63,482 nucleotides of DNA. Source: Actinomycetes bacterium. GTDB taxonomy: Bacteria; Actinomycetota; Acidimicrobiia; Spongiisociales; UBA5794. How positions within the stretch are numbered: position 1 is the first letter of the stretch; each line of letters begins with the position of its first letter. The notes below the pieces were generated by a model. That model saw only the letters and a list, made by a program, of their open reading frames with translations, was not told the origin of the DNA and searched no databases. A program made the translations under genes and the position numbers. The stretch covers positions 1-63,482 of the forward strand of contig JAMBLJ010000218.1 of assembly GCA_023336815.1 (NCBI GenBank), read 5' to 3'. This document shows positions 46,864-48,662 of the stretch, one piece after another.

Positions 46864-48057
46864 TCACACGAAGCGGATGAACCTGCGCTTGCCAACCTGG
46901 ACAACGTTGCCAAGGAGGTCGGAGCGCGGAACGCTCTCATCCGTAAGCCGAACACCATCGATCTTGACAGCGCCCTGTGCGATCAGGCGCCGTGCCTCGG
47001 CATTCGATGAGGTGAGCTGTGCATCGCGTAGGACCCCTGGGAGCCACACAGGGTCACCATCGACGAGACCTATCTCCGCGATATCGTCAGGATTCGACTT
47101 GTTCTTGAAGACGGTATCGAAGGCCGCTTCTGCACCGATCGCAGCGTCCCGATCGTGATACTTGGTCACCACGGCTCTCGCGAGACGACGTTTCGCGTCA
47201 CCTGGGTGGAGCACTCCCTTGTCCACCTGCGACGTGATGTCCTCCACTTGATCTGGCGTCAGACCAGCGGCGAGCCGGAACCATTGTCTCATCAACTCAT
47301 CGGGTATCGACATGGTCTTGCCGAACATGTCGGAGGCGGAATCTCGCACCGAGATGTAGTTGCCGAGAGACTGTGACATCTTGTGGACACCATCGGTCCC
47401 AATGAGCAGTGGCACCGTCGCGATGGATTGACCTCGATGACCGGCCTTTTGCTGGAGATCCCTACCCATGAGGAGATTCAACAACTGGTCGTTGCCACCG
47501 AGTTCGACGTCAGCGTTGACCGCAACCGAGTCAGAGCCCTGGAGAAGCGGGTACATGAATTCGATGAGCGAGATCGGTTCGTTCGCTTTCCATCGACTCG
47601 AAAAATCCTCGCGATCCATGAGCCGGGATACGGTCACCTGAGCCGTCATCTCGAGCACATCAGCCATATCCATGGCACCAAGCCACTCTGAGTTTCGCCG
47701 AATCTCGATCCGATCCGGGAGAAGAAGGGACGTGATCGTGGGGAGCACGGATGCTATGTGATCGTTGACCTCATCATCCGTGAGTCTGCGCCGTGTGGCA
47801 CTCTTCCCACTTGGATCGCCAACCTGGGCCGTGAAGTCACCGAGAATCAGGACCGCCGTATGACCCATCTCCTGGAATCTGCGAAGAAGGTCGAACGCTA
47901 CAGCCCAGCCAAGCGTCACATCGGGTGCGGTCGGATCCACACCGAGCTTGACTCTCAGTGGGTTACCTCGCTCGAGTTGCTCGAGGAGGGCACCTTCGGG
48001 GAGGGTCACATCGACTGTGCGGGTGATGTATGCGAACTGTTCTCGTGGGGACTTCAT
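46864..48057 (-). CDS. tyrS: Tyrosyl-tRNA synthetase (atypical TLGW/KMSQS motifs, C-terminal S4)
   Basis: KLGVDPTAPD, GDFTAQVGDPSGKSATR, EFMYPLLQGSDS, ELGGNDQLLNL, KMSQSLGNYI, VGKRRF. Confidence 0.95.
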   Translation of the reverse strand: MKSPREQFAYITRTVDVTLPEGALLEQLERGNPLRVKLGVDPTAPDVTLGWAVAFDLLRRFQEMGHTAVLILGDFTAQVGDPSGKSATRRRLTDDEVNDHIASVLPTITSLLLPDRIEIRRNSEWLGAMDMADVLEMTAQVTVSRLMDREDFSSRWKANEPISLIEFMYPLLQGSDSVAVNADVELGGNDQLLNLLMGRDLQQKAGHRGQSIATVPLLIGTDGVHKMSQSLGNYISVRDSASDMFGKTMSIPDELMRQWFRLAAGLTPDQVEDITSQVDKGVLHPGDAKRRLARAVVTKYHDRDAAIGAEAAFDTVFKNKSNPDDIAEIGLVDGDPVWLPGVLRDAQLTSSNAEARRLIAQGAVKIDGVRLTDESVPRSDLLGNVVQVGKRRFIRFV

Positions 48058-48095
48058 CGTTGGGGCAGGGTACACCGACTCTCTCGATGACACCG

Positions 48096-48662
48096 CTAAG
48101 GAGCGCTGTGGTCCGTTGGAATCCGAAAGCGCCACGGCCGGTCCTTCGCCTTCGAGATTCCGATCCTCACAGTGGTTTCCACGGGGTTCAGGGGTTTCGG
48201 TGACAGTGTCAGGTTGATCGGTCCATCGTTCAGGAGCGACCCGGACATCGTACCGTCGACCCCGAGAGCCTGACAGAGTTTGCCAGGGCCGTCAGCGAGG
48301 TGGTCTGTGCGTTTGCGTCTGGCGATCACGGTATTGAGTCCCCGTGTCACGGTGCCTCCTCGCAGCAGCACAGCGGAGGCGGAACCTTCCTGTCCCGTGA
48401 CCACGTTCATGCACCAGTGGATTCCGTACGAGCGATAGACGTAGACGGCTCCCGCATCCTCGAACATTGGTTCGTTGCGATCGGTTCGTGACCGGTAGGC
48501 ATGGCTCGCCGGATCTGTCGAGCCCCCGTACGCTTCCACCTCATCGAGGACCACCGCTACCAGGATGCCATCGAACGTAGTCGATAACGTTGATCCGAGA
48601 AGGCGCGGGGCAACGATCTGGGGAGCCTGGCGGAGTACACGAGCGAACTCGGCCTTGTTCAG
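48096..48662 (-). CDS. mpg: 3-methyladenine DNA glycosylase (AAG/MPG); CTG start
   Basis: VAPRLLG, EVEAY, YVYRSYGIHWCMNVV, AVLLRG, GPGKLCQALG, RIGISKA, PWRF. Confidence 0.93.
   Translation of the reverse strand: MNKAEFARVLRQAPQIVAPRLLGSTLSTTFDGILVAVVLDEVEAYGGSTDPASHAYRSRTDRNEPMFEDAGAVYVYRSYGIHWCMNVVTGQEGSASAVLLRGGTVTRGLNTVIARRKRTDHLADGPGKLCQALGVDGTMSGSLLNDGPINLTLSPKPLNPVETTVRIGISKAKDRPWRFRIPTDHSAP

What the first reader, a model, noticed from the sequence alone, without database searches (positions are those of the whole stretch)
47368..47916. TyrRS with both class I signature motifs altered: HIGH to TLGW and KMSKS to KMSQS
Seen: DPTAPDVTLGWAV (codons ACG CTT GGC TGG at 47916-47905) and HKMSQSLGN (47382-47368). 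Established: bacterial TyrRS normally has H(L/I)GH and KMSKS or KFGKT, with both His and the second Lys stabilising the ATP transition state. Human TyrRS lacks the second Lys (KMSSS) and uses K+ instead. The rest of the enzyme (Tyr pocket YPLLQGSD, GGNDQ, S4) is intact, and it is the only tyrS in the window. Inference: a lineage-specific, compensated active site, possibly cation-dependent or insensitive to TyrRS inhibitors.
Basis: partly seen in the sequence, partly recalled or inferred. Interest (0 to 1): 0.6.

Follow-up and report, generated by a model that had tools for sequence, protein, structure and literature searches.

The report
TyrRS with Trp/Gln active-site variant
This is the genome's only tyrosine-charging enzyme, and it replaces three "textbook-essential" ATP-handling residues (His, His, Lys) with Thr, Trp and Gln. 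The variant is strictly conserved across much of the class Acidimicrobiia and arose a second time, independently, in Chloroflexota.

Summary
**Observation:** confirmed. The minus-strand gene (46864..48057, 397 aa) encodes a Thermus/TyrZ-type bacterial TyrRS. It reads TLGW (47916-47905) where HIGH is expected and KMSQS (47382-47368) where KMSKS is expected.

**Not an error or a decaying copy:**
- It is the only tyrS in a 94%-complete assembly. The one other PF00579 gene is a canonical TrpRS.
- dN/dS is about 0.1-0.2.
- Thr and Gln are encoded by all of their synonymous codons across 71 loci.
- All 121 nearest homologues share the motifs.

**Distribution:** [T/H]xGW + KMSQS is the sole TyrRS in 11 of 12 sampled families of the window's order, and in 3 further families of the class.

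**New here:**
- HIGH-4 His→Trp and KMSKS-4 Lys→Gln are strictly coupled: 308 sequences have W+Q and none has W+K.
- The same T/W/Q trio arose independently in Chloroflexota. An AU test rejects a single origin (p 8e-5).
- No other residue is diagnostic of the variant.
- Other lineages pair Tyr with Gln, or Arg with Ser. Human TyrRS is HVAY + KMSSS.

**Not tested:** cation dependence and inhibitor insensitivity.

"KMSQS" occurs in none of the papers searched. The scan had already noted this same motif pair in another genome (e1-4793514).

The parts
46864..48057 (-). tyrS coding sequence (397 aa + stop). The open frame extends upstream to GTG 48135 (423 aa).
   Evidence: ORF list and translation. 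TIGR00234 tyrS scores 322 bits against a cut-off of 113.8. PF00579 scores 221 bits. Homologues are 397 aa. AF2 model pLDDT is 92.5, with TM 0.90 to T. thermophilus TyrRS 9sdf/1h3e.
47905..47916 (-). HIGH-equivalent motif T-L-G-W (residues 48-51 of the 397-aa protein; 74-77 of the ORF).
   Evidence: Aligned to HLGH/HIGH of 96 canonical type-2 TyrRS. Thr is encoded by ACG/ACC/ACA/ACT across 71 loci.
47368..47382 (-). KMSKS-equivalent loop K-M-S-Q-S (residues 226-230; 252-256 of the ORF). The second Lys is replaced by Gln.
   Evidence: Gln is CAG in 44 and CAA in 27 of 71 loci. K226 and M227 are invariant in alignment A1.
47785..47820 (-). GDPSGKSATRRR: the Tyr alpha-amino-binding Asp plus the mobile loop carrying the retained basic residues (equivalents of B. 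stearothermophilus Asp78, Lys82, Arg86).
   Evidence: Sequence. D81 and R89 are invariant in A1. pLDDT dips to 62 here, as expected for a mobile loop. The residue equivalence comes from established knowledge of the B. stearothermophilus enzyme.
47530..47553 (-). Tyrosine pocket YPLLQGSD (equivalents of Tyr169, Gln173, Asp176).
   Evidence: Sequence. Y169, Q173 and D176 are invariant in A1.
47485..47499 (-). GGNDQ ribose-binding strand.
   Evidence: Sequence. Q191 is invariant, and G187, G188 and D190 are nearly invariant in A1.
46867..47088 (-). C-terminal S4-like domain, which binds the long variable arm of tRNA-Tyr.
   Evidence: PF01479 scores 23.8 bits, above its cut-off. PF22421 scores 22.6, below its cut-off of 27. 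The model superposes on full-length T. thermophilus TyrRS bound to tRNA.

Best explanation
This is the organism's single, working housekeeping tyrosyl-tRNA synthetase. It is of the bacterial type-2 (Thermus/TyrZ-like) form with an S4-like C-terminal domain, and it charges an ordinary long-arm tRNA-Tyr(GUA). It uses an alternative, evolutionarily stable version of the class I ATP site. HIGH-1 His becomes Thr, HIGH-4 His becomes Trp, and the second Lys of KMSKS becomes Gln.

Shown:
- Sole copy, under purifying selection, clade-wide conservation, intact fold and intact tyrosine pocket.
- Strict Trp/Gln coupling.
- Independent recurrence of the same trio in a second phylum.
- Independent recurrence of analogous pairs (Tyr/Gln, Arg/Ser) elsewhere.

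Inferred:
- The HIGH-4 and KMSKS-4 side chains act as one unit when the KMSKS loop closes over ATP.
- The Trp indole N-H can stand in for the His N-H that bonds the ribose ring oxygen, and its larger ring fills the space of the Lys chain.
- The Gln amide gives an uncharged hydrogen bond to phosphate or to the indole.
- The lost positive charge and the lost first His are covered by retained groups: the Thr of DPT, K226, the K/R mobile loop and Mg2+. A bound monovalent cation, as in human TyrRS, is also possible (my estimate about 35%).
- With W/Q in place, the first His becomes dispensable. Thr is the majority state there but rare on a His/Lys background.
For: - **Identity:** TIGR00234 322 bits, PF00579 and S4. 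The nearest solved structures are type-2 TyrRS 6bqy, 6byq and 1h3e. AF2 pLDDT is 92.5, with TM 0.90 to 9sdf/1h3e.
- **Sole copy:** G000 (94% complete) has only this gene plus a canonical TrpRS. Every relative has one tyrS-level hit, including assemblies of 1-9 contigs.
- **tRNA:** tRNA-Tyr GTA, 83 nt.
- **Selection:** dN/dS is 0.09-0.21. Synonymous turnover is seen at the Thr and Gln codons.
- **Distribution:** 121/121 nearest homologues. All 38 genome-contig hits at 54% identity or more. 11 of 12 families of the order plus f15, f16 and f20.
- **Coupling:** among 488 non-redundant sequences, W+Q occurs 308 times and W+K never. Among the 150 representatives, H/K 119, W/Q 14, Y/Q 2, R/S-or-T 5. 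In 5 of 6 independent losses of the Lys, HIGH-4 also lost His, and never the reverse.
- **Diagnostic columns:** only V73, W77 and Q255 are diagnostic. Only T, W and Q are shared by the two independent clades.
- **Second origin:** the Chloroflexota clade is nested at 99% support inside HLGH/KMSKS proteins. The AU test rejects one W/Q clade (dlnL 176, p 8e-5).
- **Precedents:** human TyrRS is HVAY + KMSSS (PMC7613620, PMC2813244) and yeast is KMSAS (PMC1934993). HIGH and KMSKS are energetically coupled in LeuRS (PMC10450160). A non-canonical HIGH is tolerated in IleRS2 (PMC10485003).
Against: - No activity, structure or ligand data exist for any W/Q enzyme. I could not read model coordinates, so Trp-Gln contact is not shown.
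- The independent-pairs sign test reaches only p = 0.0625, its ceiling with 5 informative pairs.
- The AU test group was named after seeing the tree, on a quick LG+G4 tree.
- HLGF coexists with KMSKS in 7 families, so a non-His HIGH-4 does not by itself force loss of the Lys.
- G000 and nearly all carriers are MAGs. No hit came from a record named as a cultured strain.
- Sole-copy status in the Chloroflexota clade could not be checked.
Confidence: 0.85

Rival explanations
1. The W/Q(+T) site was selected mainly as a defence. Reshaping the ribose/phosphate pocket excludes a natural adenylate-mimicking or ribose-pocket TyrRS inhibitor made by neighbouring microbes, as the GXHH motif of IleRS2 excludes mupirocin. 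The enzyme still charges tRNA, so this rivals the 'neutral or compensated drift' reading of why the variant exists, not the reading of what the gene is.
For: IleRS2 precedent: swapping HIGH positions raises the mupirocin Ki by up to 1000-fold at little catalytic cost (PMC10485003). Convergent fixation of the identical trio in two soil and sediment phyla is what directional selection would produce. Solved S. aureus TyrRS-inhibitor complexes (1jii, 1jil) show that natural-product TyrRS inhibitors exist.
Against: No inhibitor, producer cluster or second sensitive copy is linked to these genes. The variant is the sole copy over a very wide and old clade, not a patchy or mobile resistance paralogue. 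I could not retrieve which residues contact SB-219383.
Confidence: 0.1
2. A catalytically dead or repurposed TyrRS-like paralogue. The real tyrS would be missing only because the assembly is incomplete.
For: Three transition-state residues are gone. Established knowledge and PMC10485003 put the loss from mutating the first His alone at about 1000-fold. G000 is a 299-contig MAG at 94% completeness.
Against: More than 90 genomes of the class were searched, and each W/Q carrier shows one tyrS-level hit only, including assemblies of 1-9 contigs at 95-99% completeness. The tyrosine pocket, first Lys, mobile loop and S4 domain are intact. dN/dS is 0.1-0.2. The equivalog HMM score is three times its cut-off.
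Confidence: 0.03
3. Sequencing or assembly error, or a private mutation of this MAG.
For: None beyond the a priori oddity of the motifs.
Against: The same residues are found in 308 non-redundant sequences from many independent projects, with synonymous codon variation at those residues.
Confidence: 0.01

Closest known systems
Thermus thermophilus TyrRS (PDB 1h3e, 9sdf) and other type-2 (TyrZ-like) bacterial TyrRS (6bqy, 6byq)
   Same: Same architecture and orthology: Rossmann domain, helical domain and S4-like C-terminal domain. Identity is 38-44%, E 2e-81 to 3e-88, and TM is 0.90. The same tyrosine pocket, DPT Thr, mobile K/R loop, GGxDQ and first Lys of KMSKS are present.
   Different: The solved enzymes read HLGH + KMSKS (alignments). 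This one reads TLGW + KMSQS, so both HIGH histidines and the second lysine are missing.
Human cytoplasmic TyrRS (49-HVAY-52, 222-KMSSS-226) and yeast TyrRS (KMSAS)
   Same: An aromatic residue at HIGH-4 together with loss of the second KMSKS lysine (PMC7613620, PMC2813244, PMC1934993). From memory, not retrieved here: Austin and First (2002) showed that K+ functionally replaces that lysine in the human enzyme.
   Different: Archaeal/eukaryal-type architecture without an S4 domain. The window protein scores only 65.7 bits against a 220-bit cut-off on that model, NF006330. Human TyrRS keeps the first His, has Tyr/Ser rather than Trp/Gln, and has Ala at the Gly position.
IleRS2 with non-canonical G/AXHH signature (mupirocin hyper-resistance)
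   Same: A housekeeping class I synthetase with a naturally altered HIGH motif that is widespread, arose more than once and has little catalytic cost (PMC10485003).
   Different: A different enzyme and a different kind of change: positions 1 and 3 are swapped and both His are retained. KMSKS is untouched, and the link to an antibiotic is demonstrated there but not here.
B. stearothermophilus TrpRS 'TIGN' and type-1 TyrRS with HIGN/HVGN
   Same: First His→Thr and/or last His→Asn are tolerated in class Ic enzymes. HVGN/HIGN type-1 TyrRS are the sole tyrS in Acidimicrobiia families f9, f13, f18 and f27. The TrpRS TIGN motif is from memory.
   Different: Those enzymes keep the second lysine (KFGKS/KMSKS) and have a small polar residue at position 4, not Trp.

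Membership tests
Bacterial tyrosyl-tRNA synthetase (TIGR00234 tyrS; class Ic), type-2/Thermus-TyrZ form | Whole-protein match to the curated equivalog model above its cut-off | tested here: met
   322.3 bits against a cut-off of 113.8, covering 22-403 of 406 profile positions.
Bacterial tyrosyl-tRNA synthetase (TIGR00234 tyrS; class Ic), type-2/Thermus-TyrZ form | Rossmann catalytic domain plus C-terminal S4-like tRNA-binding domain, with the TyrRS fold | tested here: met
   PF00579 221 bits and PF01479 23.8 bits. AF2 pLDDT 92.5. Foldseek TM 0.90 to 9sdf/1h3e over the full length.
Bacterial tyrosyl-tRNA synthetase (TIGR00234 tyrS; class Ic), type-2/Thermus-TyrZ form | Tyrosine-binding residues (equivalents of Asp78, Tyr169, Gln173, Asp176) | tested here: met
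   D81, Y169, Q173 and D176 are invariant in the 50-sequence alignment A1, which includes this protein.
Bacterial tyrosyl-tRNA synthetase (TIGR00234 tyrS; class Ic), type-2/Thermus-TyrZ form | Class I HIGH signature (H-x-G-H) | tested here: not met
   T-L-G-W: only the Gly and the hydrophobic second position are kept. This is a signature of the class, not a condition of orthology. Accepted TyrRS also deviate (human HVAY, P. falciparum HIAQ; PMC7613620).
Bacterial tyrosyl-tRNA synthetase (TIGR00234 tyrS; class Ic), type-2/Thermus-TyrZ form | Class I KMSKS signature with the second lysine | tested here: not met
   K-M-S-Q-S: K, M, S and S are kept and the second Lys is Gln. Human KMSSS and yeast KMSAS are accepted members that also lack it.
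Bacterial tyrosyl-tRNA synthetase (TIGR00234 tyrS; class Ic), type-2/Thermus-TyrZ form | Housekeeping role: the only tyrS in the genome, with a cognate bacterial long-arm tRNA-Tyr | tested here: met
   Two PF00579 hits in G000, of which the other is TrpRS. An 83-nt tRNA-Tyr(GTA) lies on contig C78. Limit: the MAG is 94% complete.
Bacterial tyrosyl-tRNA synthetase (TIGR00234 tyrS; class Ic), type-2/Thermus-TyrZ form | Tyr-dependent ATP-PPi exchange and tRNA-Tyr aminoacylation | not testable with these tools
   Needs purified protein.
K+-assisted TyrRS of the human type (second lysine functionally replaced by a monovalent cation) | Second KMSKS lysine absent and a non-His (aromatic) residue at HIGH-4 | tested here: met
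   KMSQS and TLGW here, against KMSSS and HVAY in human (PMC7613620).
K+-assisted TyrRS of the human type (second lysine functionally replaced by a monovalent cation) | Archaeal/eukaryal-type TyrRS architecture | tested here: not met
   NF006330 scores 65.7 bits against a cut-off of 220. A bacterial S4 domain is present.
K+-assisted TyrRS of the human type (second lysine functionally replaced by a monovalent cation) | Activity depends on K+ | not testable with these tools
   Needs kinetics with and without K+.
Inactive or repurposed aaRS-like paralogue | Coexists with a canonical synthetase of the same specificity, and evolves under relaxed or altered constraint | tested here: not met
   No second tyrS in G000 or in relatives. 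dN/dS is 0.09-0.21.

The most novel reading that the evidence does not exclude
T-x-G-W + K-M-S-Q-S is a distinct, self-sufficient catalytic solution for class I adenylate formation. A Trp/Gln pair replaces the His/Lys pair, and the first His becomes dispensable. It was reached convergently in two phyla because it confers a specific advantage. That advantage could be reliance on an abundant monovalent cation in place of the lysine, or exclusion of natural adenylate-mimic inhibitors.
Probability: 0.3. Interest if true: 0.75.

Novelty: new variant of a known kind. Interest (0 to 1): 0.58.

Why it matters
HIGH and KMSKS define class I synthetases, and TyrRS is the enzyme on which their transition-state roles were worked out. 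A natural, sole-copy TyrRS that lacks both histidines and the second lysine shows that these side chains can be replaced. It is fixed across a large part of Acidimicrobiia and was reinvented in Chloroflexota. It also points to a specific His/Lys to Trp/Gln exchange that a double-mutant cycle can test directly.

The variant offers a bacterial counterpart to the human KMSSS/K+ case. It is a second example, after IleRS2 GXHH, of a remodelled class I signature in a housekeeping enzyme.

In practice, motif-based checks would wrongly flag these genes as defective.

Tried and rejected
- **Read error or private mutation:** rejected.
- **Decaying paralogue with a canonical tyrS elsewhere:** rejected for G000 and for relatives.
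- **A compensating new basic residue elsewhere in the protein:** none found. Only V73, W77 and Q255 are clade-diagnostic. Only T, W and Q are shared by the two independent clades, with T67 and L105 weakly shared.
- **First-His loss coupled to loss of the Lys:** not supported by independent contrasts. TLGH + KMSKS exists in scattered lineages.
- **Single origin of W/Q followed by transfer between phyla:** rejected by the AU test. P0136 is 51% identical to a canonical neighbour but only 42% to the window protein.
- **Organism names from the listing of cluster members:** none returned.
- **Sole-copy check in a 2.78-Mb Chloroflexota contig:** the record is not held.
- **Papers:** Yaremchuk 2002 (PMC126118) and Qiu 2001 (PMC2374228) are not held. 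So ATP and inhibitor contacts of HIGH-4 and KMSKS-4 rest on memory of the Fersht/First literature.
- **Literature terms:** "KMSQS" gave 0 papers. "Acidimicrobiia" together with "aminoacyl-tRNA synthetase" gave 0.
- **Model coordinates:** not exposed, so the Trp-Gln distance could not be measured.

Full report
**1. What is there.**
The minus strand of 46864-48135 holds one open frame. Database homologues are 397 aa and cover 94% of the 423-aa frame. The likely start is therefore ATG 48057.

The protein matches the curated tyrS equivalog TIGR00234 at 322 bits against a cut-off of 113.8. It also carries PF00579 plus an S4 domain. Its nearest solved relatives are type-2 bacterial TyrRS from A. baumannii, H. 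pylori and T. thermophilus. All of these read HLGH and KMSKS in the printed alignments.

An AlphaFold2 model built on 50 sequences has pLDDT 92.5. It superposes on tRNA-bound T. thermophilus TyrRS with TM 0.90. In alignment A1 these residues are invariant and present here:
- the tyrosine-pocket residues D81, Y169, Q173 and D176;
- the mobile-loop Arg R89;
- Q191 of GGxDQ;
- K226 and M227 of the KMSKS loop.

**2. Is it the working enzyme?**
The window lies in a 3.0-Mb, 299-contig assembly rated 94% complete. Closest homologues carry Acidimicrobiia MAG labels. A six-frame search for PF00579 finds two genes. One is this gene. The other, on contig C164, is a canonical TrpRS with HLGN and KMSKS. 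ARAGORN finds one tRNA-Tyr(GTA) of 83 nt, the bacterial long-arm type.

Against same-genus and same-family orthologues, dN/dS is 0.09-0.21, with dS saturated. Across 71 genomic loci carrying the variant, the codon counts are:
- Thr: ACG 31, ACC 23, ACA 9, ACT 4.
- Gln: CAG 44, CAA 27.

So the residues, not the codons, are what is being kept. A decaying paralogue, a private mutation and a read error are all excluded.

**3. How far it goes.**
All 121 nearest proteins (69-97% identity) read T[L/F]GW + KMSQS. All 38 genome-contig hits at 54% identity or more read [T/H][L/F]GW + KMSQS. Hits at 49% or less, from Planctomycetota and others, are canonical.

I tabulated the single tyrS of 94 Acidimicrobiia genomes by family code.

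| State | Families |
|---|---|
| [T/H]xGW + KMSQS | 11 of 12 sampled families in the window's order, plus f15, f16 and f20 elsewhere in the class |
| Type-1 TyrRS, HIGN | f9 (the twelfth family of the order) |
| HLGF/HVGF + KMSKS | seven families |
| HLGH/HIGH + KMSKS | three families |
| Type-1 enzymes (HVGH/HVGN + KFGKS/T) | f13, f18, f24, f27 |

The state of family f4 (HIGW/HLGW + KMSQS) rests on the unpublished genomes G027 and G038. L022, from G038, is one row in the trees. No other claim depends on them.

**4. The coupled pair.**
Among 150 representatives of 50%-identity clusters nearest the query, the HIGH-4 / KMSKS-4 pairs were:

| HIGH-4 / KMSKS-4 | Count |
|---|---|
| H/K | 119 |
| W/Q | 14 |
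| Y/Q | 2 |
| R/S or R/T | 5 |
| F/K | 2 |
| N/K, R/K, H/Q, H/D | 1 each |
| W/H (a truncated 278-aa protein) | 1 |

Over all 488 non-redundant sequences gathered, W+Q occurs 308 times (277 with Thr and 31 with His at HIGH-1). W+K never occurs.

On a 143-row tree there are 6 independent contrasts in which the Lys was lost. In about 5 of these, HIGH-4 lost His as well, and never the opposite. The sign test gives p = 0.0625, the ceiling for that number of contrasts. The first-His change shows no such coupling. TLGH + KMSKS turns up in scattered lineages.

A comparison of 22 W/Q rows with 96 canonical rows finds only three diagnostic columns:
- V73 (otherwise L/I);
- W77;
- Q255.

No new Lys or Arg appears elsewhere.

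**5. A second, independent origin.**
One W/Q representative, P0136, is 51% identical to a canonical HLGH/KMSKS protein and 42% identical to the window protein. Its motif flanks differ from the window's. Of its 120 nearest homologues, 117 read T[L/M]GW or HLGW + KMSQS and 2 read TLGH + KMSKS. Those that carry names are labelled mostly Chloroflexota/Dehalococcoidia.

In a 74-row IQ-TREE tree this clade is nested inside canonical proteins. Support is 99% SH-aLRT at each of three successive nodes. Forcing all 25 W/Q rows into one clade costs 176 log-likelihood units (AU p = 8e-5). Three caveats apply:
- it was a quick search under LG+G4;
- the group was named after the tree was seen;
- the motif columns were left in the alignment, which biases towards union, not against it.

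The only residues shared by both W/Q clades and rare in canonical enzymes are T48, W51 and Q229 in 397-aa numbering. Y/Q (P0142, 99% with a canonical sister) and R/S (P0178, P0271) arose separately again.

**6. Mechanism.**
The established picture comes from Fersht and First on the B. stearothermophilus enzyme, recalled rather than retrieved here:
- Thr40 and His45 (HIGH-1) bind the gamma-phosphate in the transition state.
- His48 (HIGH-4) bonds the ribose ring oxygen.
- Lys82, Arg86, Lys230 and Lys233 (the second KMSKS lysine) hold the pyrophosphate.

PMC10485003 states that mutating the first His costs about 1000-fold in several class I enzymes. PMC10450160 shows large coupling energy between HIGH and KMSKS in LeuRS.

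Here the Thr40, Lys82, Arg86 and Lys230 equivalents are kept, and the other three are replaced. My inference is that HIGH-4 and KMSKS-4 meet when the loop closes. The R/S pairs look like a relocated positive charge, which argues for that proximity.

In the W/Q pair, the indole N-H can sit where the His N-H sat. The larger ring takes the room of the lysine chain, and the Gln amide offers a neutral hydrogen bond. The missing charge could come from Mg2+ and the retained basic residues, or from a monovalent cation as in human TyrRS. Human TyrRS is HVAY + KMSSS, which also pairs an aromatic residue with a lost lysine (PMC7613620, PMC2813244).

None of this is shown. I could not read model coordinates.

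**7. Comparison and novelty.**
By orthology, fold, pocket and role, this is a bacterial type-2 TyrRS. It fails only the literal class I signature strings, as accepted TyrRS from human, yeast and Plasmodium also do. It works like a TyrRS. Its loss of the lysine resembles the human enzyme, but it is not of the archaeal/eukaryal type (NF006330 scores 65.7 against a cut-off of 220).

The closest conceptual precedent is the G/AXHH signature of IleRS2, which is linked to mupirocin resistance (PMC10485003). No link to an antibiotic is shown here.

"KMSQS" occurs in none of the 8.4 million texts searched, so I found no description of the variant. It is, however, common in metagenomes.

**8. Verdict.**
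The "lineage-specific compensated active site" reading is supported in its evolutionary sense, but the variant is not confined to one lineage. The cation and inhibitor ideas remain open. I rate it a new variant of a known kind, of real interest to synthetase enzymologists, and directly testable.

Noticed in passing
Proteins P0229, P0234, P0169 (representative library; not in the window): Type-2 TyrRS fused to an N-terminal B3/4 domain of the PheRS-editing type (PF03483, E 5e-23 to 3e-17). Two of them also have altered motifs: P0229 has HIGR + KMSSS and P0234 has HLGY + KMSQS. This matches an earlier scan note on a B3/4-TyrRS fusion (e1-3031013).
   Followed up: partly
Protein P0227 (731 aa; representative library): Prephenate dehydratase + ACT domain fused to the N-terminus of a TyrRS that reads TLGH + RMGQT. 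An aromatic-amino-acid pathway enzyme is joined to a motif-altered TyrRS.
   Followed up: no
G011:C1:47165-48320, G036:C51:8665-9806, G037:C1:1569679-1570811, G030:C6:210021-211152: In four relatives the sole tyrS matches the model as two adjacent pieces in different frames. These look like frameshifts. G011, G037 and G030 are assemblies of few contigs, so indel errors are likely, but real breaks were not excluded.
   Followed up: no
Acidimicrobiia families f14, f19, f22, f23, f26, f29, f30 (loci L033, L137, L049, L041, L039, L142, L055): The sole TyrRS reads HLGF/HVGF + KMSKS. A Phe, which cannot hydrogen-bond, sits at HIGH-4 while the lysine is kept. This group lies beside the W/Q clade within a well-supported 45-row clade (99% local support) and may represent an intermediate or alternative state.
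   Followed up: partly
Family f9 of the window's own order (L003, L036, L046, L050): This one family has a type-1 TyrRS (HIGN + KFAKS/KFSKS/KISKS) instead of the W/Q type-2 enzyme. That implies a gene replacement within the order.
   Followed up: no
window 48058-48135: The tyrS open frame extends 26 codons upstream of the conserved ATG, to a GTG at 48135 that would overlap the end of the upstream glycosylase ORF (its listed coordinates end at 48096). No clear Shine-Dalgarno sequence precedes ATG 48057, so the true start is unverified.
   Followed up: no
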